From: Raillietiella orientalis
Taxonomy: Eukaryota
Assembly: GCA_036172245.1 (NCBI GenBank)
Contig: JAYWIR010000001.1
Location: 1,984,001 to 2,048,000 of the forward strand
Direction: 5' to 3'
DNA length: 64,000 nucleotides
The translations under genes were made by a program, and so were the position numbers. Each line of letters begins with the position of its first letter. Position 1 is the first letter of the stretch. Shown piece by piece: positions 15,430-48,599 of the stretch. The notes under the pieces are model-generated. The model had not been told where the DNA came from, searched no databases, and saw only the letters and a program-made list of their open reading frames with translations.

Positions 15430-16150
15430 TTTTCTTTTTTTTTGTTGTTTTGCCAAGTGCTGAAGAACCGTTTGCTCCCCCAGAGGAGTGGGGGTTGGGA
15501 GGAGCTCATGAAGCTGTCCACGCCACCCGAGAGTGCATGTTGCTCTTCAAGGCATAAGGGGTAACCTCGTAGGGACCGCGCCATGAATCCAGGAAGGTTC
15601 CGGAGAAAGCAGTCCGTTCTTCTCACGCATGGGAGGGAGGAGCCTTTGCTCTGGTTGTCTCCGAAGGGACCCTCCGGTGGAGAGGGCATTCCTCGTTTCT
15701 TCTCCGGAAGGGAACCCGGAAAGGATCCGCTCCTGGAATTCCTTCTTCGAACAGAACTCGCAAGAAAGCCGCTCCTTGTTTCTTCCTCTGATGAGAACCC
15801 CGAAGGGATGTCTCCAAATTTCTCTGAAGGGTCGCTCCTCGAAGGGAGCAGCGCGCCTCCCGAGGAGGGTACCGACCAGTTCCATGGAGCAGCTCCATTT
15901 TCCCAAACTCGGCTCCCCGATTCCTGGAAGGACCCCGGAGGGTCAATCCGGACGGTCAAGAGAGTCATCCGGTGTCCACCAGCGCCGCATCAGCGTCGTT
16001 CTGCGGGGAGGGAGCTTGAAACCCACGTCGCAGCCCCCCTTTCCCCTCCTTCCCTTCGTTGTCAGCGCAGATCCTTCCCCCCCGGGCGGGATTCGAACCC
16101 GCGACACTCTGTGCCGCGGCGCGACTCTGGGCCCGAAATGGCGGATTTCA
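15430..16150 (-). mobile_element. tRNA-derived SINE, copy 2
   Basis: 15452-15997 aligns without gaps to 12332-12877 (offset 3120). Reverse B-box GGATTCGAACCC near 16089-16100. T-rich run at about 15430-15451 corresponds to an A-rich tail on the minus strand. Confidence 0.8.
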
Positions 16151-20100: not shown

Positions 20101-23100
20101 GGCGCACGCGAGGGGCAGCGGGCCGCACACTCTTGCCCCTGCCACGCGGTCTGGGAGCTCGCCTCCGGGCAACGGATGCCGTGGCGACGCTTCCGGTCTT
20201 GCGCAGAGCGTTACCTTCTGCCAGCCGCCACCGGAGAAGCGCGGCCGCCGCGGCGACCCCCGACAGAGGGCCCGCCCGTCGGCAGCAACGAATGTCCCGG
20301 CGACGGGGTCTCTCCTGCCGGGCGTAGGGCGTCGACGAGCCGCGGCGAAGATGCCGTCGGCGCCCTGTGCGTCGAGCACCCTGGTCAGCGCCGAAATCCC
20401 GAACCGCCATAAAAAATACACACACATTGTCCACTGTGTATATTTGTACACAGATTGACGCGTACATTCATGTGCATCAGAAGGATTATTTAGAATACGT
20501 GCACATGCCGGACACGTGTATTTGAACATAGATTGACATGTACATTCACGTATGTTAGAAGGATTATTAGAAACAAATACATACCCTCATTGCGCATATT
20601 GATGTGTATATTATGTATACATAACTATATATTATAAAGATTATTAAAAATAGGTGCATGTGCTCATTATGTATATTAATGTGTATATTTATATATAGAT
20701 TAATGTATGAATTGTTTTCACATACATCTTCTTTATTAATATTGATTAACATACATATTATTAATATGGCAATATGTTAATTACGTATATTCATGTATAG
20801 ATTAATGTGTATCAAGTGTATTATTAAAAATAAGTTCACATGCTCATGTATTAATATATTTATTTATATATATATCAAAGTACATTATAAAAATTACAGC
20901 AGATAAATATAGGTTTACCATGTATGTTAGAATGCATATTTATATATTGATGAATATACAAAATTTATTGTAACATACATATTTATTAATATTTATTGAC
21001 ATGCACACAACTACTATCAATATTATTCCAACATACATATTTAGTAACGTAATTAATAATATGTGTTAATTTTCAGTACGATTATTAGAAGAAAATATAT
21101 ATATTTATAGTTCGATATTCACACACTCATTTCATTTATATCTGCTATGCATATGACTGTACATCAATACATATACAGCAAACACACATTTATTCACGAC
21201 CTTTGGTGATTTGGGCGCTGGGGACTGCGTCGGCGCCGGACGCGCCTTCTGAGCGGACACCAGCGCCGCACGGCGGCGCGGGAGCGCCAGCTTCGTTTCC
21301 CCTCCCCTCCTCCAGCACCGATGGCCAAGCTGCCTCGCGTCGCCGCGGAGGCAGCTTGGCCATCGGTGCTGCTCGAGGGACACGAGCGACGAGCCTGCGG
21401 AGAGAGGAAGGAAGGAACCTGACCAACGCGCGCCCGCCGCCGGCTCTGCGGGAAGGCGCCAACCTCCTCCCCCTTCGTCCGCCCGCCCGCACACCGCAAG
21501 GCAAAGAAGCACGCGGGAGGAACCACTCACGGTAGTACGTCAGCGGGTTCTCCATTTCCGGACACGGAAAACCCATCTTCTTGAAGTGGTCCACCATCGC
21601 TCGCGAGCTGCCGGTGTACACGACGCTCCCCACGCTCAGGAACGTCACCCGGTCCAGGAAAGGGAAGATGTCTGATCTGGGATTGTCCGTCGTCATCACG
21701 ACGATCCGGTTGTACTTCTTCGCGTAGTTGCTCAAGATGGAGATGACCATGTAGCTGTTCAAGGCGTTGAGGTCCTTGGCGGGATCATCCAGGAGCAGCA
21801 TCACTGCGGCTCTCTGGCTCACAGGAAGTGAGGGGCGGGCCGGGAGCTCTCACCTGGATCCCGGAGGACGTGCAAGCCGATCACCAGCCTCCGACGCGCG
21901 CATTTGCTGAGCTTCTGGACGCTGCAGCTGGCCACCTGCTCGAGCGAAAAGTCGCTCAGGATGTTGCTGACCCTCTTCTTCTTCACGGAAAGAGGGATCT
22001 TCGAGCTGATCGTCAGGTAAACCTGGAGGAAATTCCCTATCATCCGCTCCTCGCAACAGCACAAGGGTTCGGGGGGGGGGGGGGATGGAGGAGGGAGTTG
22101 CGGATTGTCGAGGCTCCCGACCCTCTCGCGTCGAAGGGAGGATGCCGGCGTGCCCAGCTTCCCGCTCACGTCCCCGCGAATGTACTTGGCTACGGCGAAA
22201 CGATGACGACGCCCCTTTTCCCCCTCCGCCGCCCCGTGAACAGCAACCAAACCGCCCGGAATTTGGCCCCGCGGTGGCGGCAACGGGCGTCTCGGGTTCG
22301 AATCCTGCCAGGGGAAGCGTCGATGGCGAGAAGGGAGGGTGCGTCATGGGTTTCGAGTTCCACCAGCAAGATGACGCTGGCTGGACCATTCGGGTGCGGC
22401 ACTGGTGGAAGCCGGCGGCCCCCGCTGGCCGACCACGATTGGGAGCTCATCCTTCCGGAGTCCTTCCGGGAATCAAGAAGCCCTTTGAGATTCCTCATCC
22501 GGTTGTTCAAATGGGACCCGACCTCCCCACTGGGGGGTCCTCTCCAGAGTGTCACGCTGGCATCTCCCACTCTTTGGTGATTCGGGACGAAAGAATGGGC
22601 AAGAGACGCAAGATTCTCCTCTAGCTGGACAGCCGTCGGATTAAAGACGATAAAGATCGAAAAACCTACAAGAATTTTTTAAAACCAATGGTGCAACCAC
22701 CCACGAGAGTTACAGTCCCTATCGATCCCATCGATCCCCATTCTTATTTATTAAATTCTAAAGATAACACGCACGTATAAAAACGGGCTCAAAGCATTGA
22801 TTTTGGTTAAACAAAAGATGCACTCGGTCTCGACCTACCCTCAAAAACCAAAATAAATGAGTTTCTTCGATCGAGGCGTCATGTCCAGCACCCACTGCCG
22901 AGCCAAATACGAGCAAGACGAAACGGTTGGGCCCACGCCCCACTCGTGGTTCGTCTTTCTTGGGAGGGCAGGGACTCTGGCCGGGACGTAGGACGGCATA
23001 AGCGAAAGGGTTGGACAGAGGGCAAGAAGTTCCCTTCAGATTTGAATATGCGGAAGGGAAGAGGAGGAGGAGGTGAGGGATAGAAGAGTCACTGGAGGTA

Positions 23101-26100
23101 TAAGGCTTGTTAGAACCTTATGGGCGCTATGGACGCATCTATGCGTCTGACAACTGCTTTTGCCTCGTGCACGCGCCAAAAGTGAACACTCTCCATGTTT
23201 GAGATGGACGCATGCACTTCTTACCATTTCTTATCGTTCCCTTGGCGACGACAGTGAACGAAATGCCACTCATATCTTCTGACCGTTCGCCGGTTTTTCT
23301 CGGTGTCGTACGGAATTCATCACAGTGTGTTTTTCACCTCTGCGATGTCTTAAAAATGGGAATGAGTTTTCGATTGGATTGGAATTAGAATTTCTAAATG
23401 AACAACATGTGTTTGGGAGAAGCGAAAAATTTTTTCATCTAATGCGGTGCAAATGAACAACTCCAATGGCAGCTTCGTAAAGTCAGCACTTTGTAAAAAG
23501 TCAATCGGTGGCACCGCTGATGGCGCACGCGGAACGCGAAAGGGCAGTGCGTCCACAGAGGTCGCCACTGCGACTCGCGTGCCGTCAACGCAGGACGTTT
23601 CCGTCCGACGAGCTCCGCACCCAAAGGGTTAATGACGGACAAAGTCCACAAGGTGAAGAGATCCAAATATCTTCTGGTGCTCCTGGTGGCCACGCGGAGG
23701 GGCTTTCGCGGGGGAAACGAAGGTGCGGTGCGCGAACCATCTGGTGGGACTCAGGTGAAACGAAAATGGAAGCGGGAGGAATGGTTTCGACGCTCTCCGG
23801 AAGACGCGAACCGATGAAGGGTTGCCCACTATTTGGTGTCTGACCCGCTGAGTCCCTGACCGTGGACCAGGAGGGGGGAACGGCACACGCCTCTGGGAGG
23901 TCAGACCTCGTCCTGCTGTTTTCAGTACGGAAGTTTGGCACGGAAGCGTCACCACGGGTACGGTGCAGGTCGACACCCGGAGGAGACGACTCGCGGAAGA
24001 GGGCCAGCCGCGCATCTTGCAGAGCCGGCGCTGCGACAACGCGAAGCGCACACCCGGCGTCGCCATGGTCCGGAGAGGAAGTTTCCCTGGTTGCCGTCCC
24101 CTTTCGAACGAAGCGTGGCCGCTGGCGAAGTTCGCGATGATCACGCCAGATGGTGTTGAACGAAGCCACCTAGTCGCACGCCTCTTTTCTCCTCCTCCTT
24201 CTTAAGGAAGGGATGGCGAGGATTCCACTGAGTACGGTAGTCGCGGGTGGAATTTTCGCGGTCCTGGCAGGACCGCGGCACGCGCGGAGGAGCGGTGGAA
24301 AAGACGGAAATCCGAGAAGCAGAGGCGTCAAAAACGGATCTCCTTGTCCAGGATGCGCGCGATCCTCTTTGGAAGAGGCGACGAGACGCAGCTCCGCGCA
24401 ACGCTCGCTGAGCAGAAACGCAAGCGCCGAGTCCCCGTGGAAACGGCGGCAGCAGGCGGGTTGCTGGTGCCTGCCCAGGGAAGGCTGCGATCTGGCGTTC
24501 GGCGTGGCCCACGACTCGAGAACCTCCGGAGCGAGCGGAGTGCGCGCGCATATGGAAGGAGGTCGCAGAGGTGACCTTGGGGCATTTTGCCCCTTCCTGC
24601 GGAAGCTTACCGTCTTTCACGCACGGACCCGGGCTCTGCTCTTGACGCATCACCTGTGAAGCCGCTCGGACGCATGCCGAGATGCCTGGGGCTGAGTGCG
24701 CTAAGGCTGGCTCTCCACGGGTGGAGGCGCTGGCCTCCAGGGTGCAGCGCCCATGAGACAGGAGAGGGAAGAAGGAAGAGGAGTCTTCGTCGTCGACAGA
24801 TGCGATCCCTGAGACCGGGACCGAGAGACCCTTGCCGGCCTTTCTCCCTGGTCCTTCCTTTCCCCGGATTTCGAAGGAAGCGAAGCGACGGCGGCGTAGT
24901 TCCGAGAGTTGCCGTCTCGGCGCGCTCCTCGCTCGCTCGCGTGGGATCGACGCGAGGTGGCAGCAGCGCCCGCCGGCAGCCGAAGCAGCGAGATACGGGG
25001 TGGCCAGTGGGCGCGTTGATTGGAGGAGGAAGGAGCGGCGGCTGGCCGAATAGGCGGCCTGTGAAATCGCAAGTCACGTCCGCGAGCTCGGGAGGCGCGC
25101 GATGCTGGCTCTCCCTACCCTCCCAACGGCCCTCCCCGGATGCTGCACCTTGCGGGCTCGGAAGTTGCGACGAGCCCCCACTGCAGAGCCCTAACGAGGG
25201 GTGGTGTCGCGGACGGAAGGGGCAGAGGGACAGGGTGGGTCAGCAGATCTCGCCCTCCTCCTCCTGACCTTTGGCACGCCCTCCTCCCCCCCCCCCCGGA
25301 AGCATGGGCCTTGGAGAAAGCTCTGGTCTTCGCCGCGGACCCCAGAGGCCGCGCGCGCGAGCGCACGCCTCCGTGCGGAACAGCGGTGACGGCATCGGTC
25401 ACGGTGAGCAATCGGTTCGCATCAGCTGCCGCGACTCTCCCCGTCCTGCCCACCAGCAACGCACGGAAGGAGAGGGAGCGGGGGCGTAACCGAAACAAAA
25501 AAAAAGACTTTCCGCGTGCCGCAGGACGAGAGACTGCCCTGCCGAGCACGAGGGCACCTGGGGGAGCACGAGCGTATCAGCAGCAGCAGCAGACGGAGCA
25601 ACAGGCACACGGACGCAGGCGAGCAAGAGTTTGCCTCCTCCTCCTCCTCCCACCCATCACCGGGGTGAGAAAGCGGAAGCACGCGATCACCCGACCGTTC
25701 CCGTGCTGGCGTTTCGAGCGCGCGCACTCTCCCGGCCGGAAAGCAAGTGCCTCCGCCGCCGCTGCCAGGAGAAAGCGCCAGCGTCGCGACCTTTGGAGCG
25801 TTTAGGTCCGATCCGGCCTCGGAGTCTGCACCGGATTCTCCTCCTTTCACCTGTCGCCGCTGGACAGCTGTCTGCCTCGTTTGCTTTCGTTCTTTTCTTT
25901 CTTTCTTTCCTTTTGTGTGCGTGTGTGTGGGCGTTAACGATAGCGACTGGCTGCCACGGACGACAACCGGCGGAAACACGTCGCAGCTACCACTGGCTGT
26001 GCAACTCCCCCATCCCCACCCCGCCTCCCTTTTCGAGCCCACAGGTGGTCAGAAACCCACTCCGCGAGGCGGACATTCACAAAAACGGTTGCGTAGACTC

Positions 26101-29100
26101 CGGGGTGGCATCCGCAGCTCAGCCGGAGCAGGCAACCACCGTAACCATCGCGACGGCGCATCGGCGTCGCTCGCGGAAGCAGTGCCGTGATTTGGGGACC
26201 GCGCGACACCCTAAAGACCCTCGTTCCGAGGCGTCGGCGGCAGCTCTCGGGTGTCTCCGGGCGTGTCACGTCCGCGTGGCAGCACGGAATTTGCCACCTC
26301 GAGCTGCACTGTTTGGGAAACCTCGACGGATGCGGAAACGGGGCAGGCAAGACCTTTTCTGCGTCGGAAGACACGCGGGGGAAGTCGCGGAGGCGCGCAC
26401 TGCAAAATCATCCCCCGGCTCTCTCTCTGCCTGCCGTAGCAACGACGGCGATCGGACGCTGATTACAAAAGGGAAAAAAGCAACGCCGGAAGGAAAGCAG
26501 CGACGGTCGGACGGGGCCGGACCGATGGTGCGCCGCCACCCGGCCGCAGAGGGGCGCGCGGCGGGAGTCCGTTTCCGCCCCGCTGGCTCTTCCCTCGCCT
26601 GCACGCCTCGCTGCCCCCATCTCGCGGAGTTCCGTCGAACCTCTCCGGTCCGTTCCCGAAGAGGAACCGCGCGCGACTGTCTCGTTGCGAACGGCACAGC
26701 TGCTGCTCATCTCCTGCCGGCCCCGCTGCCCGCCCTTCTGCGCCACGGGCGCACTGACCGCAAGCGTCGCCGAGCACCGTCGGGAACTCCCCTTCCCCAT
26801 CCTGGGAGGTTTGCACGTTCCATGCGCTCGTGACCTCCAGCTAAGGACTCCGATCTCTTCCTCAGAGAGGGTTAGCGCAGCGTAACAAACGCGCGTTGCA
26901 TTTGCAAAAGCACGACTGACCACTCTCGCCAGAGGGTGTTTTTTTGTTCGTTTGTTGCCGTCTCCCCTCTCAACTCGGCGCGACGGCCTCGTCTCGATGT
27001 TCGATGGCCCCGAATGACAAGTGGCAACGTGGTTTCTGCGAACGGTCAGCTCGCCACTTCGGAATCCGTGCCACGGGCATGAGTCGATGCCCCCCCTTCC
27101 TCGGGGACGAAAAGCAGCGAACCAGCAGCGCGGACCGCACCGCTGCTGGCATCTCTTGGCGGATTTGCGAAGGTGGCACCTGGTATCGCTGGCGGCGACC
27201 GCCTCGTCACCTGCACGAACCCGCCCCTGCGTGCCCACGCTCAGGGTCAGGTCAGGAGGGATCCCACCGCGCGTCCCATCTCGTGGGATACGCGCGAACT
27301 CCGTTGCGCCGTTCTGTTCGTAGAAGGAGAAGGGGAGCACTTCGATCAGCCCTCCACCAATTTTGTTTGGGTGCCACGCAGGCGATTTTTTTCTCCTTTT
27401 TCCTTTCCTTTTTTCTTCCTGTGCAGCTGCGATTCTCCTAGCAGCTTTCCCTCTCGGTGCAGTCCCCATGCAGGGGGAGCCCAGCAACCACTTCAAAGAA
27501 GCCAGCGCGGCGTCGTAAACCTGGAAGTCCAAGCTCGCCATTCTTTGCCCAGCAACCAGTCACCTTTCCTTTAAACAAACGCAGAGTCAATGTTTAAAGG
27601 AGCAGACTTCAGGACGGAACCACCGAAATCACTACCTTAAAATCCACTCAAAAACACACACACGTTCAATGCACATAAGCATTGGTTTGGATAAAGATGC
27701 ACTCAGCTGTGCGCCTTTTTCAAAACAAAAAAAACGAAAAAGTAAAATGCATGATGCCATCGATGAGGATGCTTGTGTAATACTTTGTAGTACTTATTTT
27801 ACAAAGGCGAGCAGAAAGGTGGTCGGCCGGCGATTTGCCGAATCTTGCCATTCCAGCCCCCCCTTCAGTTCGGGGGAGACTCCGGTCTGTCTACTCGCAC
27901 CTGACTCCACCCCAGACTTGCAGTCAGACACCCAGGGACCGGGGTCTAATTTACTTGACCAGGGTTGCCAATTTAGCGTTTTCCCCGCTATGTCTGGCGT
28001 TTTGGAGAACCTATCTAGCGGCTAAAAAATGTTTTATCATGCCGAGCGGGAATTCTGGCGGTTTTTTTCATAATCGCTGGGGCCGCCGAAGTTTATGGTT
28101 TCTTTTCGTGTTTGCAAAGAAAATTTTCAATGATGGATGTTGGAGAAAGTCTTAAATAGAATTCCGGATCTTTTATCCGCCCCTGTTTCCGTCTTGGCGG
28201 GTGTGGGGGTCACATGAATAAGTTATTGCATAGTTGATGAAGATTGTCGAGGAAAACGACTGCCTAATTATCAAAACATTTCGATATTTAAATTGTGGGA
28301 AGGAGGTAATAAGAGCGGCAGTGCAGTGCTCTCCTTACAAACGTAACGTGCAGCAAAGGCTTCATAACATAAATGTCACGTGATAAACAATTATTACTTG
28401 TTAGCTTGCTAGCATTTCATTTTTGTATTATCGAATCTGAAGACTACATGGCATCAAGTGATTTAATAATAATAATAATAAATTCCTAGGTATGAAAATC
28501 TTGAGATCTTTTTTGAAAAATGGCAGGATTTGAAGGACATCTAGCGAGATTCCATTAACTTGTGTTGGCAACCCTGGCTCTGAGGTTTGGCGTCCCTCGC
28601 GAGTCGCTCCCTGTTGTTCCTTTTGGAGGGAAATCGGACTTGGCTTCTTGGCAAAAAGGGCAATTATAAACGTAATTGTAGAGGATAGAGGGGGGAGGGG
28701 GGGAGAACTCGATTTCCCATTTAGGGGCACGAAAGCGCCATTCGGATTAGCATTTTCGCATTATTTCTATTTCCGGGCAATTCTTACGGCGCATACAAAG
28801 TAACACCAATTCATCGCTGGGTCCACGTGCTCTGTTCCTGTTTGTCGCCCTGGTAGGGAAGGAGCCTCTCCTTCCTTTCTCTGCGATCCCTGTCGACGTT
28901 GCCCGCTCGAACGCGGGCGGGAGGGAAAGTTCGCTTTCGATGCACGGCGCCAGCAAGAAGTCAAAACGTGTGGACTGACAACGTCGCAGAGGTCCCAAGG
29001 AACGGACGGAAACGCCTTCTTACGATTTCGTCGGCCGAGTTGATTTCTGCCGTTCCCGAAGACTTATTGGAAAAGTTCCATAGAGTCACGAATCCCTTCC

Positions 29101-34713: not shown

Positions 34714-34749
<36 letters not shown>

Positions 34750-37700: not shown

Positions 37701-39292
37701 AAAGAGGGTTTGCTCGGAGGCAACGGAATACCTGACCCTGAAGCGCCTTCCGGGAAAGCTGCCGCTCCCAGTCCACCGGAAACGCCTCATCCTGTGACCC
37801 ACCGACTCGAGCCGTCGGTGGCGCGTCTGAAAGGAAGGGAACCCTGCGTGTTGCGAGTGACCCTATGACCCCAAGGCTCGCTGCTCCTTGGCGTGTTCGA
37901 GAAGTCCCCGCCGCCTCTGCAGCCACCAGGAAGTCGGCATGGGCAAAACCTCCGCGCGACCACGTGCCCGTCCATCCCGCCTCCGCGTCTTCATTGCCCC
38001 TTCTTCCCCTTCCGTCCTGCGGACAGGTAGAACTCGAAATCCAGACGGGCGTCGACTGCGGGACCGAACGCGGTGCGCGGACCGCCGATGGCCGCGCGCT
38101 TCAGACCGGACGGCGCGCAAGACTTCATGAAACTGCGCGCAGCGGCGCAGTCTCTTCTTTGTGCTCTGCCCGCTCCTGCTTTCCCCGGAAATCCAGAATA
38201 AGCGCGCAGGGTGCCCTGGAGCAGGAGGGTGGCGCCCAAGAACACGCTTTCCTTTCCTCGCTCCCACGCGCCCAGAAAGTCCCACCGCCCGCGGAAAGAC
38301 CAAGCTAAGCACCGGGGGGGTTCCTCCTCCGTTTGCTTCGAGCATCCCCCCAAAACTCGATAGGACCGACACCTATTAGGATAGGCACGGAGGAATTCGC
38401 GCCGTTTCCACCGACTCCGGACAACCGTCTCCGGAGCCGCCGCCGCCGCTAGCGCCGGGTCCCTCCTTCGCCCCTGCAGAAGCTCTCTGCGCGGTGGCTG
38501 CACGGCCACTGCGCGGGCAGGAAGCCTTCCGCCCCAGCGCCTCGAAGTGCACGGGGTGCAGCGCGTCTCCCGCGCGCGCTCACTACCGAGCTCTGCCCAT
38601 TACCTCACCGGTCGGGTTGCTGACCTCTGGAGTGCCCAGGAGATCGGAGCGGCGGCGCATAGTTTTCCTCCCCCCCTCTCCTCCTCCTCCTCCTCCTCCT
38701 CCGTCCGTCCTTCTTCCATTTTTCCCCCGCGAGACCGCCCCACCGCGAATCGTCCTTGGCGCGGAGGGTAGGATGAGGACGAAGGAACGCGAGTTCCTCC
38801 TCCGGCCAAGACTCGGGGAAGGCGAGCTGCTCGCGAACCTTCCGAACGAGCGCGACCCACAGCCCAAAGCGCGAGAGTGGTTCGTCAGGAGTTGACCGCG
38901 GGGACTCTGGAAGAGGGGAAGCGCGTGTCCAAAGCGAAGGACACTGGCAAGCCTCCGACAGGAACGCAACAGGCAACAGGCTCACCAACAGACCCGATGA
39001 GTGCCATGACCTCCCTGCTGTGGACCTGCAAGCTGACGTCTCTTAGAACGAAGTCCACGGTCCGGGTTCCGAAGATCTTCCTCAGGAAACCGGAGTCGTC
39101 GCTCACCTGGAAACACAATCCCACTTTCTCCCTCTTCCTGTCTGGCAGGGCGCGATGGAGAAAAAAAAAAAAAAAGAATTGGACGAGGAGGAACGCGCGC
39201 TCGCAAGTGAGGGGAAGGGAAGTGGGGGATCAAGAAACCTCGCCCGTCTGGTACACGTTCAGTAGCCTCAGTTCGTAATTTGACGTCAGCAT
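17161..39292 (-). CDS. ABCG5: ABCG5-like half transporter (arthropod CG11069-type), about 629 aa, 10 exons
   Basis: Phase-consistent exons (5' to 3'): 39292-39239, 39106-38986, 35412-35231, 22022-21854, 21803-21531, 19445-19238, 18975-18770, 18685-18547, 17855-17670, 17512-17161 (1890 nt, TGA). NBD-then-TMD ABCG layout: MLTSNYELRLLNVYQTGEV, VLRDVSLQVHSREVMALIGSVGSGK, LLLDDP, PRSDIFPFLDRV, GFPCPEMENPLTYY, LPEWLQYLSY, GCRYVNGTHYLLERY. Orthology to vertebrate ABCG5 is inferred. Confidence 0.9.
17930..18130. repeat. About 200-bp polypurine (GA-rich) low-complexity tract in ABCG5-like intron 8
   Basis: Almost only G and A on the + strand (GAGGAGGAAGAAAGAGGGG...). Confidence 0.8.
20386..21220. mobile_element. 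AT-rich foldback/MITE-like island 1
   Basis: Left end CAGCGCCGAAATC (20386-20398) and right end GATTTGGGCGCTG (21208-21220) are inverted, 12/13 match. Interior is extremely AT-rich with degenerate subrepeats. Left motif AAATCCCGAA-N4-CATAAAAAATA is shared with islands 2 and 3. Confidence 0.6.
21313..21371. repeat. Perfect 24-bp inverted repeat with an 11-nt spacer (59-nt hairpin)
   Basis: CAGCACCGATGGCCAAGCTGCCTC (21313-21336) is the exact reverse complement of GAGGCAGCTTGGCCATCGGTGCTG (21348-21371). Confidence 0.9.
22255..22480 (+). mobile_element. tRNA-derived SINE, copy 3 (diverged and partial, opposite orientation)
   Basis: GGGTTCGAATCCTGCCAGG...GTCGATGGCGAGAAGGGAGGGTGCGTCATGGGTTT...CCGGAGTCCTTCCGGGAATC matches the reverse complement of the head and early body of copy 1. 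Confidence 0.65.
27959..28577. mobile_element. Non-autonomous DNA transposon (MITE, hAT-like termini)
   Basis: CCAGGGTTGCCAA at 27959-27971 and TTGGCAACCCTGG at 28565-28577 form a perfect 13-bp inverted pair. Repeated YTRGCG motifs lie inside and the interior is more AT-rich than the flanks. No clear TSD survives. Confidence 0.6.
29651..30329. mobile_element. AT-rich foldback/MITE-like island 2
   Basis: Left AAATCCCGAACGATCATAAAAAATA at 29663. The reverse complement of the right end, GGTTCAGAATTCCCAGATATCATAACAAACAAATAC, resembles the family's left end. Internal units such as ATAACAAATAAATGTA occur in both orientations. Confidence 0.6.
34175..34950. mobile_element. AT-rich foldback/MITE-like island 3
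   Basis: Left AAATCCCGAAAGCTCATAAAAAATA at 34183. Right end CTTTAGCGATTTGGACG resembles island 1's CTTTGGTGATTTGGGCG. Contains a (TA)n run at about 34717-34747. Confidence 0.6.
35470..36500 (+). mobile_element. Possible heavily decayed, GC-enriched LINE RT/C-terminal remnant in ABCG5-like intron 2
   Basis: Ordered weak motifs across frames: PQG, DVFAY, LELNSK, EVLG, LHSIVL*SWGCSEESWTG, RPVDFWSG (cf. PQG, YADD, LxLNxxK, KYLG, Y..W, RV..WN). Pattern recognition only. Confidence 0.3.
36680..36790. repeat. Polypyrimidine (CT-rich) tract
   Basis: About 110 bp of nearly pure C/T on the + strand. Confidence 0.75.
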
Positions 39293-40542
39293 CTCCAGCC
39301 CGTCGCAGCCTCGTCGCTCCAAGTGTCGCGCGCCAGGGACGCTCTTGCTCCAGGGTATTGTTGCGTAGGAGAATGGGAGTCCGTCAGACCTTCCCTCCGA
39401 AGCTGCACTGTGAAAGGACGGCACCTCTCTGGCGGAGCTCCTCGGGTCATAGGAAGAAGCGATCCCCCCGAGTTATCCGTTTCGCCTGAGGGGGCTGCGT
39501 ACCTGCCTTGCGTCGGCGCGACAAGCACCGTGTACTGGACCGAAGACATCTCCAGTCATCTCGAGCGAGCGGCACACGTGACCTTGCGTGCGTGCGTGCG
39601 TGTAATCTACAGCGAGAGGCCTCCCGCTTCGATGTCCTCTTGGTTGGAAGGTGCCATGGGGTAAACCCCTCTTCCCTGCCTTCACACGTATGTATTTGGC
39701 GACGAATGCGTGTTTGACTGTGCAATGAGCAATGCAGCTTGGATGTGTACGTTGCAGTGACGGAGTGTAGCTTAGCGCGGAATCGTCCTCATCCTTCACG
39801 GATCCTTGCCATACAAGATTATCCTGATAGGTGTGCTTATAGGTGTGCTTTCTGAGACGCCTGATCGAATGTGGGGGGGGGGGGTGCCTACCCGAAACAC
39901 TTATTTTGCGAAAAGCAGTCTTTGTTTCCGTCGTCCCCCGGTACTTTTGTCATCACGAGCGTGCGTAAACGAAATTTTCACACGAACCTTGTTCCTTTTT
40001 TCACGATGGCGTTGGCTGCTGGTTCGAAAGCAGCTGCCCAGGACCTGTTTCGTAAAATCAACAAGTTACGGATGTTCATACCCTTCAGGCAGGCACAGAG
40101 ATGCAGGAAGTGAGGTTGAGACATTCTTTGCCCGTACATCCCCCCCCCCCTTCCCTCCACTTCTTCCCCAGGAAAAAAAAGTAAAAGAGCAGTGCCCAAT
40201 TGTTCATTTGTATCAGGTGCAAAAAATTGCAATTTTTAAGGTCAACACGCGCGCGCGCGTTGGAGATTCTTTCCAAGCCTGTCTCCAGTCGCCATTCATC
40301 CTGTGAGAGCCGCCGACGCGAGTCCCCCGCCACGATCGCCGTGCGTTATCGTGCGCTAAGATTTATAGCACTTGGGCGGATTTCGGAAGGAGCAGTCTCC
40401 TTGCTGATCCCTCTTTTCAAATGTGCATTTTCGTCCTTGTCTTTGAATTTCCTGTAATTTGCTGAAATCGAGCGTGAGATTTTTTCGAAGCAGGTGCCTC
40501 TCATTCACTTCTTTAGACTTCTTCATCCGACTGATTTCGAGC

Positions 40543-40848
40543 TAACGCCCGGGCTAACAACCAAGCAGTGCGAGGAACGAAGCTTCCTTCGCCCCTTCGG
40601 TATTGTTGCGACATTAAAAACAGTGTTGCTGGCCTTCGCCGTGTTTCCATAACGCCCGGGCTAACAACCAAGCAGTGAAAGGAACGCAGCTTCCTTCGCC
40701 CCTTCGGTATTGTTGCGACATTAAAAACAGTGTTGCTGGCCTTCGCCGTGTTTCCATAACGCCCGGGCTAACAACCAAGCAGTGAGAGGAACGCAGCTTC
40801 CTTCGCCCCTTCGGTATTGTTGCGACACAAAAACAGTGTTGCCGGCCT
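40543..40848. repeat. 107-bp tandem repeat, about 2.9 copies, between the divergent ABCG genes
   Basis: Unit start TAACGCCCGGGCTAACAACCAAGCAGTG occurs at 40543, 40650 and 40757; the copies differ by only a few bases. Confidence 0.92.
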
Positions 40849-42630
40849 CCGCGATTTTCTGATGCGACACTGATCGGCGGCTGGCTTTTCGCGGTTTAGG
40901 TCGAGGAGTGTTGTCGCTTCCATATGAGGAACCGGACCTCCATTTGCACACCTCGGAGGGCATCTTTCGTGAGCATGCATCATCATCAGACCCCGGCGCG
41001 CTGACGTGCGGAAGCAGTAAGAGCATTTGAAGAGACGGAAAAATTCCGCTACAGCGGAACCACCGGAAAGCTCGGGTATTCGGGGAAATGAGTTCAAGGT
41101 CAACGGTGGCCAGTTTAATTGCGTGCTTCACTGCTGCTTAAGTACAAGGGACACGAACTCCGACGGTGCGGTCAGGTGAGCCTCGCAATTAAAGATCTCT
41201 TCTGCCGTCTTCCCTGCGTTGCGATCATCTTGCTCAAATCACTTTCTCTCCCAACGAAGTGCTGACATTTCATTCCGATTGACAAGACATTGACCTTCGT
41301 TTTTCTCCCCTGCTTCCCCCCTCTCTCTCCTTTTTTTTCTTTTTTTTCTTTTCTACTTCCTCTTCCCCTCCTTGTCTTCCCTTTTATAAACGCTGTTTTC
41401 GCTTTCATTCGGTAATTTCATGTGATCGTCACGGAAAAACAGTTTTGCAACCGTGTTTCGCCTACGGAAGCGAAGAAGCTGCCACCAAGAATTCCTTTCG
41501 TTCCCGCGCGTCGCCTCAAACACCCGCATCTTCCGAACGCTCTGCCGCCACTGTTCTGGTGCGTCTAATTCTTCTGCTTTGGAGACTCAAAAACATTGGA
41601 AGATGCCTCACCTGCTGCCGTTGTTTCTTTGGGAAGAAAGGGATGCAACAAGCTGCCCCTCTTCGAAAGATACGTGGTTTTGTCGGGAACCGGGGCAAAG
41701 AGAAACCCGCTGCTCCTGGCGGCGTTCGACAAGGGATGATAGGAAATGAATCCTCCTCTGGACTTGCAGCGTCGGAACCCCCCGTTTGAATCGGGGCGTG
41801 GTTTTGCCTTAAGTAGCGAGTCAGCAAGGGGCAGCAGCCGGAAACGTGGCGCGGATCCCGAGGAAGGTCGTTGCGCCGCCCAACCGGCCGGCTCATTCCC
41901 TCCCGGCTGCCTTGCCCTTCCTCTTCCTCTCTGCAAGCAGGGGAGGACGGGCCTTGCAGGTGCAGGTGAAAGAGGTGGGGCAGGTCCAGGCGACAGAGAC
42001 GCTGAACGGAAGAGTCAGATGCTCTGAGACCTGCAGCCTCCTTGTGGTACTGGAGCCTTCTGTTCCTCTCCGATCGGGATGGGAAGGGAAAAGGGCTGGC
42101 AAGAGGCAGGTAGGCAGATTGTTTTTTTGTTTTTTTTTTATTCCTTTCGAGCTCTCACTCGCCTGTATGCACGCGTTGTCGAAGAAACCGTTCTCCTTCA
42201 TCAGTAGTGAATGGGAAGCGCTGGGGTGAGTTGGGAAGGGGGGGGAAGGGCGTGTGAGGAAGGGGATAGATGGAGGAAGGGTAGCTGCCGACTACGAGAG
42301 GAATCTCTCCCGGTGCGCATGCATGGGAGGAAAAGAAGAGCGACCACTCCGAGCTATTCCCTAAAGTAGGGACGGGCGGGCTGTGGAGAACCTTTTTCAT
42401 CCGCACTCGCCCTTCTCTCGGACATGCCACACAGGAGATCTCGCCCAAGGGTCACGTGGGAGACGAGTGGAACCTTGCTGGTCACCTGACTCTCCTTTCT
42501 CCTCCTCTCATCTGTTCTTTTGGGCGAAGGAAGGTCGCTGTTTCAGCCTCCCCTTTCGCCGTAGGTCCCATCCTGAACCTGGGAAGGACGTCCCGCCAGT
42601 GACTGCCAGGCGCCATCTTTGACGCCTGCC

Positions 42631-45600
42631 ATGGTCGTCTCCGCCGTCTCTGCGGTGACCCAGGGGCCCCTCTTGGTGATGGGTCGCGAGAGGAAGCGGC
42701 CCTCTAGCGCCGCAGAGTCCTCCGAGGACGGCAGGCCTTCTCTCGGAGGGGGTCGCGAGGCCGAGGATCTGCATGCCTGGTCCATCTACCGGCAGAACTT
42801 GAACTCGGACTTTGCCGACACGGCCATGGGCAGCCCCGAGCGGGCGTCCCTCCCCTACGGCAACTTTCAGCTGCGGGACGCTACCGTCCAGGCGATCCTT
42901 CGTGACCCGGGCCTCGCCCCCAGGTCCGAGCTGAGGACGACCAACACGTTCGCCTACCTCAAGTTTGGGCTGCCGAGGGTGCTGCCCCCCAGCTGCCGTG
43001 GAAGCAGCGGTCTCCCTGCCGCCACCGACCGCTCTCCGGACGGGCCTTTCACACTGCGCCACTCCGGGAGCGAGGCCGACCTCCTGGCCGCCCGTGGGGG
43101 GAGCAAAAGTCGCTCTGCGGGCGATCAGCTGCGGGCAGCCCACTCACATGCCAGCCTTGCGTCTCCGCGCGAGCGGAAAGGGCCTCCCTCACTTCCGTCC
43201 AACCCAGCAGGGACAGCAGCGGAGACTCACGGAGACGCGGACAGGACGGGCACCGTTCACTTGCAGCTCCGCAACGCCACCTGCAGCTACCGCTGCCGCG
43301 GCAGGAGTGTCCGGCTGCTGGACGGAGTGTCCCTGGAAGCCCGTGATGGAGACCTCGTCGCCATCCTCTCGACTGACGGTGAGCGGTACTCGGGCGGAGG
43401 AAAGGGAAGTAGCTGCGGATCGCCCTCGGCCCTCGGCAAACCTCTTCGCTCCCCTTCCTCCCCCAGGAAATCAGAGGGCAATCTTCCTGAGCGGGGAGGA
43501 GGCAGACTGAGGGATCTCTGCCAGGGGCCCGAGGAGGACCCAGCCTCCTCCTCGCGGGGTCACTCTCGTCTCTGCTCCTGGAAGGGCGAGATGAGAGTTG
43601 CCTCTTTTTCCACATGTTGATCCTTTCGTCCCTTCCCAGAGCTGGAAGGCTCCTGCCTGCTGGGCACTCTCGCGGATCGATGGAGCAGTTGGGACTACCA
43701 CTTCGAAGGGCACATAATCCTGAACGGATGCTGCGTGAAGTCCTCCGAGATGAGGAGCCGCGTGGCCCTGCACCAGCAGCGCGACAGCGCAGCCTTCTTT
43801 CCTGACGCCAGCGTCAGGCAGACCCTGCTGTTCCAGTCGCATCTGCGACGGCGCCTCGGAAGCTCCTCGCGCACCAAGAGTGATATCAGCAGAGAGGTAG
43901 CCGGCGTGTTCAATCCTAACTTTCGCATACTCGCTGCAGGTGGAGGAGGGACGGGGGCGACACGCGCTGCCTCGGGACGCGCAGGATCGGTCGCGCTTGT
44001 CCATTGGAGGTAGAGAGCAGGCGCTTCCTCCTCCTGGCAGGACAAGGGGATCAGGTGGTGCCCGCTTCAGAAACTTGCGGATCGAGGGTGCATGCCCTCA
44101 GGGGTCGCGCGCGCGTGCTGGCAGCCGCCAGGCGATCCGAGGGGAGAAGGGCGGTCGCGGCGCCAGGGGACAACACGAACGGATTCTTTGCGAAACGTCC
44201 GGCGGCGGAAGGTCTGCAAGGGGAAGTTGCAGCAGAGAAAGGACATTCCCCCGCGCGCGCGGCTCGCGTGTTTGCGAGACTTGTGGGGTGCTCGATCTCC
44301 GGGCCTCGGGGAAAGGGTGGGTCGTTTGAGGCGAGTGGCGCCTCCAAGAGGGCGACCGGGGAATCCCGGGGACTGCTCCTGTTCTCCGCCTCGCCCGTGA
44401 GATCTTTGGCCTTCCTTGGCGGCCAGCTGGCAGCCCGGTTTTCCGGTGTAGGAGCCTCGTGTAGGTGGTGGTGGGAATCTGGAAAACGGCGCGCGCATGC
44501 ATTCCTTCCCCGCAAGGCCGTGGCGAGGCTGTCGGCGCAGCCAGTCGCCCACAGTCTCGCCGTGGCAGGGTGGAGATGAGGAAGCTTTGCCTTTCCTTCC
44601 CGCCGCCAGGTAGATGGCTCCGGAGAGCAGGAGGTTCTCTCTGCCCTCATTACCAACGATGGGTGCTGCAAGCGTGCATCATCGTGTCGGAGGACGGAAG
44701 CAAGGCAGCATCGCTCCGCTTCCATTCCAACGACTTCGCTGCAGAAGCGGACAAATTCTCCTCGGGAGGCCGCTGCTGCAAGAACGATCTCGCAAAGTCA
44801 AGCAGCGCCATCCTACGAGTAAGGGGACTCGAAAGCCACGACGCATCTACTCTCGGTCTCAATTGTTTACGGGTATTTCGAACTCGCAACGCATGGGACC
44901 ACGCGTGGCTAAAATCGCATTGGGCGAGAGCTAGGGCTGAAGATGACCCTGTCATCCACTCTGCTTGATCTTTCATGCATGCGCGCGCACTCGGCATTCC
45001 TGATGGGAACGCAGGATGAACGCCTGACAGCAACGTTGCCACGACTCCCGCCAGTGCTAATTTTTCGCTCCCGTTCTCCCCTCCGTTTCTGCCCGGTTGC
45101 TCCTCTGCGTGCGGAGCCGCATCGCTCGCACTGCCGACCGGGGGCCCTTCCGCTTGTTGCCGGGGGCGCCATTGGGCTTCTTGGCATGGCCGGCTGCACC
45201 CGCGGAACGGCTGCAGGACGGGCGGACGCGCCTCGCTGGCACCGCGCAGCTTTGGGAAGGTTGTCACGCCCGAGGCAAGCGTCGCTCCCTCCGCATGCAG
45301 CGGATGCCGCGCGCGTCCAGCAATGGCGCTGCGGTGCTGTCGAGTTTGCCCGGCGATGGCGGGAATAAGGGATGGGCTGCACCTGCTGGAACGGAGGTGA
45401 CACAGAAAGTGCGGGATTCGAGACGTAGTGGGAGCTCCTTCTCTTGCCTTCTCTTTGCCACCTCATCCGGCTGGACTTGAAGGACGGGGATGCCCAGTCG
45501 CCCACTTTCTTTCCGTAGATCGACGAGGTTCTGGTCGGGTTGCAGCTGGACCACCTCCGCGACGCCAGGGTGGGACGCCTGAGGGAAGGCGAACGGAGAC

Positions 45601-47748
45601 GACTGGACGTCGCCTGCCAGCTGCTTCTGGGCACAGATATCGTCCTCCTGGACCGGGTGATCGAAGGAGCGAACATTCTGGAAGGCTCTTCCATCGTCAG
45701 CTACCTGAAGATCTGGACCCAGAGGAGAAAGATCGTCCTGGCGACGGTGGCACCGCAAACCTACGAGATCTTTTGCATGTTCACCCAGGTTCTTCTTCTT
45801 TCCATGGGCCGCAGTATCTACTTCGGGCCCCGCGAGGACTTTCTTTCGTACTTCTCGGCTCTCGGCTACCCCTGTCCCGTTCACAAGAACCCCGTGGATT
45901 ATTACGGTGAGTCAACTTGCATCTTTGGAGAGCGATCGATAATGGGATGGGAGATGCGAGTCGCGAACACGCCCCGTGTGCCTCTTTTTCTAACACCAAC
46001 GCGCCGTTCTGATGCCTTCCGCCTACTTTCGGGGACTCCTTTCCACCCTCTGGTGGAAGGAGGAGAGTTTTTTCCAGTGAAGGGGGAGGGGAAAACAATT
46101 CCTGGGCAAATATGAATTCTTCCTGACCCAAGTGGCTCGCGCCCTAATGGTTACTGTGGCTGGAGGGATGATGCAATCAAGCATATATCCTCCCCCTTGT
46201 TCTCCTCCTTCTGATTGGTTTCCGCTCGCCCTGGTCGAGTCTGCAGGAACTGTTTCGGGATAGAGACAACCTGCCGGGAGACCTTCACCACTCGTAGGTG
46301 TGTCCTCCACTTCGTTGCTTCTCATCTTGAGAAACCGAAGCGGTCAGCCAGATTACCTCCCCTCCCCCTCGTTTCCAGTGGACCTGGTCAGCCTGGATGA
46401 GCTCAGCCCGGAAGCGATGCTAGAATCAGGACAGAGGATCGACCAACTCGCGGAGATCTTCCGGCAGAACCACGGATCCTTGCTCGATCCGGAGCCGTCC
46501 CGCATGCTGCCTGCGAAGATCAGGAGGGCCAACTTCCTCATGCAGGTCACTGCCCTGCTGCTGTGAGTGTCCAGTGGAAGGATGAAGGAGGAGGGTCACA
46601 TGTTCTTTACCTTTCAAGACGTAGTCTGGTTTACTCGTGGCCCCGCAACCTGCGAAGACTGTGCGGAAGGGTCTTAGCAGCCGCTGTCGTGTCCGTCACC
46701 GTCGGCCTGGTGTACTGGGACATGAGAGGAGAGGTCCAAGAGCAGGTCTCTTGAGGGAGAGGGAAAACGAAGGGGGAACGTTTCTCGCTGATCATCCCGG
46801 CTTCCTTCCTGCAGGAGAGCGTTGTTGACCGGATTGGATTCCACTTCTGCATGGTGGGTGTATCTGTGTGGCCTATCGTCGCCCTTGCCATCGATGATGT
46901 CTTCTCTTGCAAAGCTCACGTCTGGAAGGAGGTGGAAGAGAAGCTGTACTCGGGTTTCAGCTGCATGCTGTGCAAGGTACGACGCTTACTTCTCTTTCTC
47001 GACACCTTTCGGGGGACTGGAGTGAACGGACTTCCATATCCTCCTCTCCTCTTCCTTCTCCAGTTCCTTCTGGATTCCCTGGCTTCGGTGATCGTGTTCC
47101 TGTCGTACGTTCTGCCCGCCTACTGCATGGCAGGCCTGACTCAAAGCAGCGGCTCCCTCGCTTCCTTCTGCACGTACTCCGGTGAGTACGAGATGGTGTT
47201 CTGGCTTCCATGTTGGCGGCGACTAGTCTCTTTGCCTCTCCATCTCTCTGTGTGTGCTTAGCCTGCTCCTTCCTCTCACAGGTCACATGCTGGCATACCT
47301 CTTCTCGGTGTGCTCTCTAGCCGCAGCCACGGCCTGGATTCTTCCCTCGAGGTTAGCGGCCACTGCCCTCACGGCGGTGTTGATGACCCCGCTCCTCCTC
47401 GTCAGCGGATGGCCCATCCACTTGCGGGAGATTAGTCACTGGGCGCGCTGGATACAGTGGGTATCACCTGTGAGGGTCATCCTCGAGGAAGTCGTCGTGA
47501 GGGAGATGGATGCAGCAGGACCCTTTCGCTGCAGCCGCAACCCTGTGGTCCAGCAGGACAACCTCATACTAGTTCAGATGGATTGCGGCATCCAGGAAGG
47601 CGTTCACGCCCTGGAATACATGGGTTATACGCCTCCCGGGGGCGATCTCCGGCCAATTTTCGTGGCCGCTGGGTTCGGCCTCTTCTGGCAGATGGTGTCC
47701 CTCCTGGCAGTAGTGTTCCATCGGAGGTCACGTCCTGGACCCGGATGA
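42631..47748 (+). CDS. ABCG8: ABCG8-like half transporter (arthropod CG31121-type), about 816 aa, 8 exons
   Basis: Phase-consistent exons: 42631-43378, 43640-43896, 45519-45906, 46379-46562, 46619-46745, 46815-46976, 47064-47181, 47282-47748 (2451 nt, TGA). Characteristic N-terminal block EDLHAWSIYRQNLNSDF..YGNFQLR..YLKFGLPRV; also GYPCPVHKNPVDYY, DLVSLDELSPEAMLES, CSRNPVVQQDN..VQMDCG. The start could instead be the ATG at 42679. Confidence 0.9.
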
Positions 47749-48599
47749 CACGATGTGCACCGATCTTCCTGTGTCGTTCCCTCTCTGTCCGAAAGGCTTC
47801 GAATGTTAGGGGTGAATTCAATCTCTTCCGTGGAAGTCTTCTCATCTCCCTCGTTCTTCGGACCCACGCCTTTTTACGTCATAAAGTTTGCCCCCCACGG
47901 GTTCAGAAGATGGATGCCGGTACTGGAAGCTGTACCAGTTAGAACCATTATGAGCTTTCATCTCTTTTCCAACTCTGCAGGAATATCTATCCGCCGTTGA
48001 GGCCGACAGCTTCCCTAAAGGGATCTCAACTACTGCCATTGCAACAACGTTTTCGAAATAATAAAAATGGCGTCGGTGCGTTATCTATTTTTAAAGCGGA
48101 AGATCGGTCTATGCCGACGATCTTAAGCCCCGGCAGCATCGCTAGAGGAAATCCTCGAGCTGATCCGCCGGAGAGCTGGCATGTGTGTAAACAGGGCGTA
48201 GTCGACTGTGCTTCCCGTTGGTGTGGCTGGGCAGGGCAACAGGACTATATCCGCTTAGGGGTCACAGATTTAAGTACCTGAGAGTTCCGTTGTGGGACCT
48301 CTGCGCAGCGGCAGCCTGGTTCGGTTGCCTCCAAAAGGCAGAATCGGCGTCGCACAGCCCGTTCCTGAACAAGTTTGTCTTGCCGGAACCGTCTGTCATG
48401 TAAAACAGGTTCGTGGCTTTCCTCCTCTGATCCCCACTTTTTGTTTTCTTCGCGCCCGGACATGCGAAAAAGCGGACAGAGGACCTTTTGCGAGCCGTCT
48501 GGGGAGCGCAGCGATCTCGGTTTCGCTTGAAGGACTCGTTCGCGCCTCGTCGGGACGCTGGAGAGGATGGAGAGTCAGCTCCAGTTTAGAAGATTCGCC

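What the first reader, a model, noticed from the sequence alone, without database searches (positions are those of the whole stretch)
21531..45906. Both subunits of the ABCG5/ABCG8-like pair appear catalytically degenerate: candidate pseudo-ATPase transporter
Seen in sequence. G5-like: Walker A GSVGSGKL (no S/T after K), signature LSKCA, Walker B LLLDD (catalytic E to D), switch region TTDNP (no His). G8-like: P-loop replaced by STDELEGS, signature LREGE, Walker B VLLDR, switch TVAPQ (no His). Established: canonical motifs are GxxGxGKS/T, LSGGQ/E, hhhhDE and the H-switch, and mammalian ABCG5/G8 keeps one active composite site. From memory, insect homologues are already partly degenerate. Inference: neither composite site here should hydrolyse ATP efficiently, yet both ORFs and TMDs are intact. 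That suggests an ATP-independent lipid/sterol carrier, a sensor or scaffold, or pairing with another ABCG.
Basis: partly seen in the sequence, partly recalled or inferred. Interest (0 to 1): 0.7.

Follow-up and report, generated by a model that had tools for sequence, protein, structure and literature searches.

The report
Arthropod sterol-pump pair, both engines degraded
These are two intact genes for this arthropod's version of the human cholesterol-export pump ABCG5/ABCG8, but both ATP-splitting sites lack key residues, and the same loss is seen in all arthropod relatives sampled, so the pair has probably been kept for hundreds of millions of years for a job that needs little or no ATP hydrolysis.

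Summary
All eight motifs are real. Both genes are intact, head-to-head and GT-AG spliced, with one copy of each found. The degeneracy is not peculiar to this animal. In arthropod G5 orthologues the Walker A Ser/Thr is absent in 64 of 64 and the switch His in 67 of 67. In G8 orthologues the P-loop Lys is absent in 156 of 156, the second signature Gly in 157 of 157 and the Walker B Glu in 156 of 157. Nine of nine non-ecdysozoan G5 proteins are fully canonical. Tardigrade, nematode, nematomorph and priapulid G5 proteins are also eroded, in one 100/100 clade. The window adds further losses (both D-loop Asp to Asn), but no more than its fast evolution predicts. The best-conserved part of arthropod G8 is an unannotated 76-residue N-terminal module. 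Best reading: a selected heterodimer that hydrolyses ATP poorly or not at all and acts as a lipid facilitator or sensor; no biochemistry exists. Ten library searches found no description; papers assume human-like pumping. The scan earlier noted ATPase-dead ABCG proteins in Naegleria, which are not G5/G8.

The parts
17161..39292 (-). ABCG5 (CG11069) orthologue, 10 exons, 629 aa: 39292-39239, 39106-38986, 35412-35231, 22022-21854, 21803-21531, 19445-19238, 18975-18770, 18685-18547, 17855-17670, 17512-17161
   Evidence: model; orthology
35399..38995 (-). G5 Walker A GSVGSGKL, split by intron 2 (38995-38986 plus 35412-35399); Lys kept, Mg-binding Ser/Thr replaced by Leu
21897..21911 (-). G5 signature LSKCA (arthropod consensus LTxSE)
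21766..21798 (-). G5 Walker B LLLDD (Glu to Asp) and D-loop with Asp188 changed to Asn
21679..21693 (-). G5 switch TTDNP, Asp at the His position (arthropods: Glu 51, Asp 13, Asn 2, Ser 1 of 67)
39293..42630 (.). 3.3-kb head-to-head spacer, presumed shared bidirectional promoter; holds a 107-bp x 2.9 tandem repeat at 40543-40852
   Evidence: arrangement conserved according to PMC3724490
42631..47748 (+). ABCG8 (CG31121) orthologue, 8 exons, 816 aa: 42631-43378, 43640-43896, 45519-45906, 46379-46562, 46619-46745, 46815-46976, 47064-47181, 47282-47748 (a second possible ATG lies 16 codons downstream)
42763..42990 (+). 76-aa cytosolic N-terminal module of G8, seen here only in arthropod G8 proteins; the most conserved part of arthropod G8; no known family
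43369..43653 (+). G8 P-loop remnant STDELEGS, split by intron 1; the three P-loop Gly positions and the Lys are replaced
45579..45593 (+). G8 signature LREGE (Arg at the Ser/Thr position; Thr in 156 of 157 orthologues)
45642..45674 (+). G8 Walker B VLLDR and D-loop with Asp387 changed to Asn (Asp in 157 of 157 orthologues)
45744..45758 (+). G8 switch TVAPQ (His 90, Gln 67, Ala 0 of 157 orthologues)

Best explanation
The two genes are the arthropod ABCG5 and ABCG8 orthologues (shown). They are probably co-expressed from a shared promoter and form a G5/G8 heterodimer in an epithelial membrane (inferred from the mammalian pair and the conserved head-to-head layout). Site 1 (G8 P-loop, G5 signature) cannot bind ATP normally. 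Site 2 (G5 Walker A/B/switch, G8 signature), the only working site in mammals, lacks its Mg-binding Ser/Thr, its His and a normal signature throughout arthropods; in this animal it also lacks the catalytic Glu and the D-loop Asp (shown in sequence). The dimer therefore most likely hydrolyses ATP very slowly or not at all (inferred, about 0.75 for this species and about 0.6 for arthropods generally). The retained G5 GxxGxGK loop suggests residual nucleotide or phosphate binding that could gate the dimer. The most likely job is downhill, hydrolysis-independent movement or presentation of a sterol or other lipid between leaflets or to an acceptor, regulated through the G8 N-terminal module (inferred, untested). 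Erosion of the G5 site maps to the ecdysozoan stem; arthropods are sterol auxotrophs, so an uphill sterol-excreting pump may have become unnecessary.
For: Motif tallies over 67 G5 and 157 G8 arthropod proteins. 9 of 9 non-ecdysozoan G5 proteins (2 sharks, annelid, 4 molluscs, sponge, Capsaspora) keep GKS/T, Q-loop Gln, [IVL]SGGE, DE and His. The degenerate ecdysozoan G5 proteins form one clade, 100/100, with a long stem (0.95, about 0.6); the arthropod G8 stem is 1.6-1.8. In mice, mutating G5 Walker A or B, or the G8 signature, prevents biliary sterol secretion (PMC6824678; PMC8403869). Signs of selection in the window: open frames despite about one substitution per site, GC3 0.85 and 0.76, 23 of 25 conserved G8 TMD columns and 42 of 49 conserved module columns kept. 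The G8 NBD is more eroded than its TMD (23 of 64 versus 2 of 25 conserved columns changed, p=0.009). The fly orthologue CG11069 was among 26 of 113 RNAi lines that lowered male fertility (PMC12227202). [quoted passage not shown] A predicted shrimp G8 model has the full ABCG fold, best match human ABCG8.
Against: No biochemical or transport data exist for any arthropod pair in what I read. Arthropod G5 keeps the Walker A Lys (64 of 64), the Walker B Asp (66 of 67) and often the Glu (47 of 67), so slow hydrolysis is possible. In ABCC1, His to Gln or Asn keeps transport, and the D-loop mutations did not affect human G5/G8 transport. Gly to Ser at the second signature Gly resembles a mild CFTR allele (recalled, no call). 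The substrate may not be sterol: Phe occupies the human A540 position in the window and in 18 of 71 arthropods, and human A540F abolishes cholesterol secretion; however, Capitella, with a canonical NBD, also has a bulky residue there. The window's extra changes are not enriched at the ATP sites (G5 5 of 18 versus 18 of 75, p=0.77; G8 7 of 15 versus 16 of 49, p=0.37), and G5 shows no NBD-versus-TMD difference (p=0.6). The link with sterol auxotrophy rests on one evolutionary event. A hydropathy scan found only 4 of the 6 expected helices in G5 above threshold. The CG11069 diet phenotype was almost null on retest.
Confidence: 0.5

Rival explanations
1. Slow but real ATP-driven sterol or lipid pump with a rewired catalytic site: the basic residue after the Walker A Lys and the acidic switch residue substitute for Mg and His, and site 2 still drives transport.
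For: G5 GSKGSGK is nearly invariant (62 to 64 of 64 per position) and Glu is kept in 47 of 67; tolerated H-loop changes are known; published surveys assume conserved function.
Against: Glu is lost repeatedly (Asp 18, Asn 2 of 67) with no gene loss. The window has neither the basic residue (Leu) nor the Glu, and has Arg at the signature Ser position. Three to five catalytic elements are missing at the same time.
Confidence: 0.22
2. Non-transporting sensor or scaffold: the dimer binds lipid or nucleotide and signals through the conserved G8 N-terminal module, working like the sulfonylurea receptor.
For: The module is far better conserved (49 of 75 columns at 90% or more) than the NBD (64 of 242) or the TMD (25 of 298). 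It is a predicted helical island between disordered stretches. Sterol-path residues are altered.
Against: No partner has been identified. The full TMD fold and extracellular loop are retained. The module could equally be a trafficking or regulatory element of a carrier.
Confidence: 0.18
3. Each half pairs with a different, catalytically intact ABCG partner (as Brown and Scarlet do with White).
For: This genome holds at least one canonical ABCG gene (L003).
Against: The salmon louse survey found only these two ABCG genes (PMC4587908 section 22), and louse G8 (P0388) and another copepod's G5 (P0169) are degenerate. The head-to-head linkage is conserved. Each half lacks both a normal signature and a normal Walker/switch set, so a canonical partner would still not complete a site.
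Confidence: 0.06
4. Decaying genes or assembly and annotation errors in this species.
For: Longest branches among the arthropods sampled (about 1.0-1.2); several otherwise invariant residues are changed; no dN/dS could be computed.
Against: No stop or frameshift in 1,445 codons; 16 canonical introns; only one copy of each gene found; conserved columns are preferentially kept; the main losses are clade-wide.
Confidence: 0.04

Closest known systems
Human ABCG5/ABCG8 sterol exporter (PDB 5DO7, 7JR7, 7R87-7R8B)
   Same: Orthologous half-transporter pair, NBD-TMD order, head-to-head genes, same fold, dead site 1.
   Different: The human pair keeps one canonical site that is required for transport. 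Here site 2 is degenerate too, the five-residue segment before the signature is missing, G8 carries an extra conserved N-terminal module, and several sterol-path residues differ.
Arthropod CG11069/CG31121 orthologue pairs (Drosophila, Tetranychus tetur01g16290/16280, Daphnia, salmon louse Lsa.2606/Lsa.25615)
   Same: Direct orthologues (35-45% identity), same layout, same classes of motif loss, same N-terminal module.
   Different: The window pair is a long-branch member with extra changes: Leu after the Walker A Lys, D-loop Asn in both subunits, signature Glu to Ala in G5 and Thr to Arg in G8, Ala at the G8 switch, loss of the SSGYDS motif and of the G5 R389 equivalent.
Asymmetric ABC proteins with one degenerate site or non-pump roles (TAP, Pdr5, CFTR, SUR1/2)
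   Same: Degenerate sites maintained by selection; non-pump functions exist; a TAP D-loop mutant acts as a facilitator.
   Different: As reviewed in PMC7756269 (passages read), these carry one degenerate and one canonical site; here neither site is canonical.

Membership tests
ABCG5/ABCG8 orthology group | ABCG half-transporter, NBD before TMD | tested here: met
ABCG5/ABCG8 orthology group | Best similarity to and grouping with G5 and G8 respectively | tested here: met
   Best PDB hits of orthologues are G5 (220.9 versus 198.7 bits) and G8 (200 versus 163.5 bits). The window proteins fall in the arthropod G5 and G8 clades. The link of the ecdysozoan clade to other animal G5 is moderately supported under the mixture model (89-90) and unresolved under LG+G4.
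ABCG5/ABCG8 orthology group | Head-to-head gene pair, single copy | tested here: met
   (genome search counts are lower bounds)
ABCG5/ABCG8 orthology group | Obligate heterodimer | not tested
   Inferred from mammals; no full-length pair was modelled
Active ABC ATPase (human-type G5/G8 pump) | G5 Walker A GxxGxGK[S/T] | tested here: not met
   Leu in the window; Ser/Thr in 0 of 64 arthropods
Active ABC ATPase (human-type G5/G8 pump) | G5 Walker B catalytic Glu | tested here: not met
   Asp in the window; Glu in 47 of 67 arthropods
Active ABC ATPase (human-type G5/G8 pump) | G5 switch His | tested here: not met
   Asp in the window; His in 0 of 67
Active ABC ATPase (human-type G5/G8 pump) | G8 signature LSGG[QE] | tested here: not met
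   LREGE in the window; second Gly in 0 of 157 orthologues
Active ABC ATPase (human-type G5/G8 pump) | Measured ATPase and sterol export | not testable with these tools
   Needs purified protein
Sterol transporter (TMD path) | Conserved sterol-path residues (G5 I529, A540, Y432, R389) | tested here: inconclusive
   The window has Thr, Phe, Cys and Ala; these positions vary among arthropods and partly among canonical outgroups; TMD alignment is less certain
Pseudogene | Stops, frameshifts, loss of splice sites, no preference for conserved columns | tested here: not met

The most novel reading that the evidence does not exclude
In the ecdysozoan ancestor the ABCG5/ABCG8 sterol pump began losing its catalytic site, and in arthropods it became a conserved heterodimeric ABC transporter with no hydrolytic site at all. 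It works as an ATP-hydrolysis-independent sterol or lipid facilitator or sensor, controlled by a newly acquired G8 N-terminal module, a shift that fits sterol auxotrophy. The window pair is an extreme end of this series.
Probability: 0.4. Interest if true: 0.8.

Novelty: new variant of a known kind. Interest (0 to 1): 0.6.

Why it matters
Arthropod ABC surveys assume that these orthologues pump sterols like the human pair, while stating that their function is unknown. The sequences say that the residues shown to be essential in the mammalian pump are missing across arthropods. A natural, long-conserved ABC heterodimer without a hydrolytic site would be a rare test of what ATP hydrolysis contributes to lipid transport, and it would reframe sterol handling in animals that cannot make sterols. 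It can be tested directly in Drosophila (CG11069/CG31121). The nematode-like orthologues and the unannotated G8 module are further leads.

Tried and rejected
RNA support: no RNA holder was listed for window 42500-47900, so no reads were laid; this is no evidence either way. Complex prediction of the shrimp G8 N-terminal module against both NBDs: no answer, alignments were not used by the tool; not evidence for or against binding. dN/dS: no close relative was available, so conserved-column counts were used instead. Enrichment of window-specific changes at the ATP sites: not significant, so a special second loss event in this lineage is not claimed. Genome search with PF19055 rang nowhere, controls included; uninformative. 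Pfam, PDB and ESM Atlas searches for the module found nothing credible (best Atlas score 0.81, within chance). G8 orthologues of tardigrades, nematodes, priapulids, molluscs and annelids were not retrieved: all named hits among the best 120 of 370 were arthropod, so double degeneracy is shown for arthropods only. A paper search for recalled C. elegans gene names gave nothing useful, and C. elegans itself was not examined. PMC6053765 and PMC5068940 mention CG31121 only in gene lists or stock tables. The window's species was not identified; trees place it weakly in Pancrustacea (91 SH-aLRT, unresolved).
Full report
OBSERVATION. Six lie within exons at the coordinates given under the observation check; the two Walker A regions cross phase-1 introns and read as stated after splicing. 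The G5-like gene has 10 exons (39292 to 17161, minus strand, 629 aa) and the G8-like gene 8 exons (42631 to 47748, plus strand, 816 aa). All 16 introns are GT-AG, there is no internal stop, and the start codons are 3.3 kb apart, head to head. Searches of the 210-Mb own genome with one exon of each found only these two genes and one more distant ABCG (counts are lower bounds). That gene (L003) and most of the 20 loci from an ABC_tran search show canonical motifs, so the degeneracy is specific to this pair. tblastn of 10 orthologues showed no alternative NBD exon in the window in the output displayed.

IDENTITY. Homologue searches with single exons returned arthropod proteins annotated ABCG8 (45 hits) and ABCG5 (156 hits, best 120 listed). 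A third search with a G8 alignment listed 120 of 370 hits. Orthologues match human G5 and G8 best among solved structures, and an AlphaFold model of shrimp G8 (mean pLDDT 76.7) matches human ABCG8 first. The pair is thus the CG11069/CG31121 orthologue pair that earlier surveys describe as head-to-head G5/G8 orthologues (PMC3724490, passages; PMC4587908, passages and section 22).

THE DEGENERACY IS CLADE-WIDE. I tallied 67 G5 proteins (those of 480-800 aa among the 120 listed; 53 were dropped by length) and 157 G8 proteins (115 new ones plus the 42 of 45 with at least 380 aa). In G5, the residue after the Walker A Lys is Arg 46, Lys 16, Gln 2 and never Ser/Thr (64 with data). The switch position is Glu 51, Asp 13, Asn 2, Ser 1 and never His. 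The Walker B catalytic position is Glu 47, Asp 18, Asn 2. The Q-loop Gln is kept in 15. In G8, the P-loop Lys position is Gly 145, Ala 10, Ser 1. The second signature Gly is Ser 149, Ala 7, Pro 1. The Walker B Glu position is Gln 145, Arg 11, Glu 1. The switch is His 90, Gln 67. Named members span horseshoe crabs, spiders, mites, ticks, a sea spider, millipede, centipede, barnacles, copepods, decapods, Daphnia, springtails and insects; unnamed rows are assumed to be arthropod from similarity. In mammals only the site made of G5 Walker A/B and the G8 signature is active, and mutating it blocks sterol secretion (PMC6824678, passages; PMC8403869, passages). That site is the one eroded here.

WHEN IT HAPPENED. 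A profile search of 1.84 billion cluster representatives (52 of the 143 new hits were 900 aa or shorter and were examined), named by cluster look-up, gave outgroups. Nine of nine non-ecdysozoan G5 proteins (two sharks, Capitella, Solemya, Mizuhopecten, Biomphalaria, Lottia, Sycon, Capsaspora) have GKS/T, Q-loop Gln, [IVL]SGGE, DE and His. All nine non-arthropod ecdysozoan proteins lack the five-residue segment before the signature and have a degenerate signature. The tardigrade has the arthropod states (GKR, Glu at the switch). Six of six nematodes have Arg at the switch but keep GKS/T where modelled (5 of 5), with DE in 2 and DD in 4. The nematomorph lacks DE and His. Priapulus keeps His but has EE in Walker B, and its model lacks Walker A. 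These proteins form one clade, 100 SH-aLRT in a quick mixture-model tree of 58 rows and 100/100 in a careful LG+G4 tree of 25 rows. Its attachment to other animal G5 is 89-90 in the first tree and unresolved in the second, and long branches call for caution. PMC3724490 found no C. elegans orthologue; I did not examine C. elegans. Non-arthropod ecdysozoan G8 proteins were not retrieved, so loss of both sites is shown for arthropods only. Arthropods are sterol auxotrophs (PMC13118006, passages) and so are nematodes (recalled); this is one event, so it is a hypothesis and not a correlation.

WHAT IS PRIVATE TO THE WINDOW. Both proteins are long branches (about 1.0-1.2 changes per site), 35-45% identical to their orthologues. 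Extra changes include Leu after the Walker A Lys, Asp188 to Asn (G5) and Asp387 to Asn (G8) in the D-loops (Asp in 66 of 67 and 157 of 157), the G5 signature Glu to Ala, the G8 signature Thr to Arg, and Ala at the G8 switch. With 71 G5 and 157 G8 orthologues, changes at columns conserved in at least 90% were not enriched at the ATP sites over the rest of the NBD (p=0.77 and 0.37). The G8 NBD was more eroded than its TMD (23 of 64 versus 2 of 25, p=0.009), whereas G5 showed no such difference (23 of 93 versus 7 of 23, p=0.6; 4 of those 7 lie in a divergent C-terminal tail). Open frames, GC3 of 0.85 and 0.76 and preferential retention of conserved columns argue for continuing selection.

OTHER ANATOMY. 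Arthropod G8 has a 76-residue N-terminal module (window 42763-42990), present in 138 of 157 rows. Of its 75 columns, 49 are at least 90% conserved, against 64 of 242 in the NBD and 25 of 298 in the TMD, and the window keeps 42 of the 49. It has no Pfam, PDB or credible Atlas match and is modelled as a helical island (pLDDT 58-78) between disordered stretches. In the G5 TMD the human A540 position is Phe in the window and in 18 of 71 arthropods (Ala in 3), and the R389 position is Ala in the window (Arg or Lys in 66 of 71). Human A540F abolishes biliary cholesterol secretion and R389H causes sitosterolemia (PMC7756502, passages). Positions were mapped through shark G5, and Capitella also has a bulky residue at 540, so this only weakens, and does not exclude, a sterol path.

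MECHANISM. The most likely reading (0.5) is a selected G5/G8 heterodimer that hydrolyses ATP negligibly, may still bind nucleotide at the G5 P-loop, and moves or presents lipid downhill under control of the G8 module. The rivals are a slow rewired pump (0.22), a sensor or scaffold (0.18), pairing with a canonical ABCG (0.06) and decay (0.04). Against the partner model, the salmon louse was reported to have only these two ABCG genes and its G8 is degenerate. In favour of residual pumping, H-loop changes can be tolerated and D-loop changes did not harm human G5/G8 (PMC7756269, passages). In vivo hints are thin: CG11069 RNAi lowered male fertility, as one of 26 of 113 lines and not among the four fully sterile ones (PMC12227202, passages and section 12), and a diet effect was almost null on retest (PMC8960806, passage).

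NOVELTY. The genes and their orthology are known. Ten library searches and passages of 15 papers showed no statement that the arthropod pair lacks a canonical site. Two papers say that it probably works like the human pair, one that it could contribute to sterol efflux (PMC3421444, passage), and two that its role is unknown (PMC6801466, passage). PMC4041752 (passages) adds only phylogeny and expression. No paper was read whole. Subscription papers (for example the 2014 arthropod ABC review) and supplementary alignments were not seen and could contain the observation. The scan's own notes record ATPase-dead ABCG proteins in Naegleria, unchecked here and not G5/G8.

Noticed in passing
window 42763-42990 (+): Unannotated 76-aa N-terminal module of arthropod ABCG8, more conserved than the NBD; no Pfam, PDB or Atlas match.
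   Followed up: partly
window about 43000-43020 (+): An SSGYDS motif follows the module in 139 of 157 arthropod G8 proteins but is absent in the window. It resembles a beta-TrCP/Slimb phosphodegron (recalled, untested).
   Followed up: no
proteins P0195, P0202, P0282, P0239, P0281, P0275: Nematode proteins group with arthropod ABCG5 in the ecdysozoan clade, although a published survey found no C. elegans orthologue; all six have Arg at the switch His.
   Followed up: partly
protein P0243: A Capsaspora protein groups with arthropod G8 and has fully canonical motifs; together with the canonical signatures of non-ecdysozoan G5, this suggests that the ancestral G5/G8 pair had two active sites and that site 1 was lost later.
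   Followed up: partly
window 17161-17200 (-): The G5 C-terminal tail departs from the conserved arthropod terminal motif and ends two residues earlier; a T-run lies there, so a one-base error cannot be excluded without reads.
   Followed up: no
window about 7700-12100 (+): Multi-exon WD40 plus coiled-coil gene with very short introns (WD40 hits); looks like CFAP57/WDR65 (recalled).
   Followed up: partly
window about 52900-54970 (-): Myb-repeat exons, and upstream an open frame with a 15-bp x 30.7 tandem repeat (54358-54817) encoding acidic five-residue repeats.
   Followed up: partly
window 12360-12870 and 15267-15990: Two similar copies of a dispersed repeat with no Pfam match, probably transposon remnants.
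   Followed up: no
window 40543-40852: 107-bp x 2.9 tandem repeat (96% matches) inside the shared G5/G8 spacer.
   Followed up: no
L003 (G000:C37:412447-415692): Canonical ABCG1/4-like half-transporter gene of the same genome, used as a control.
   Followed up: partly
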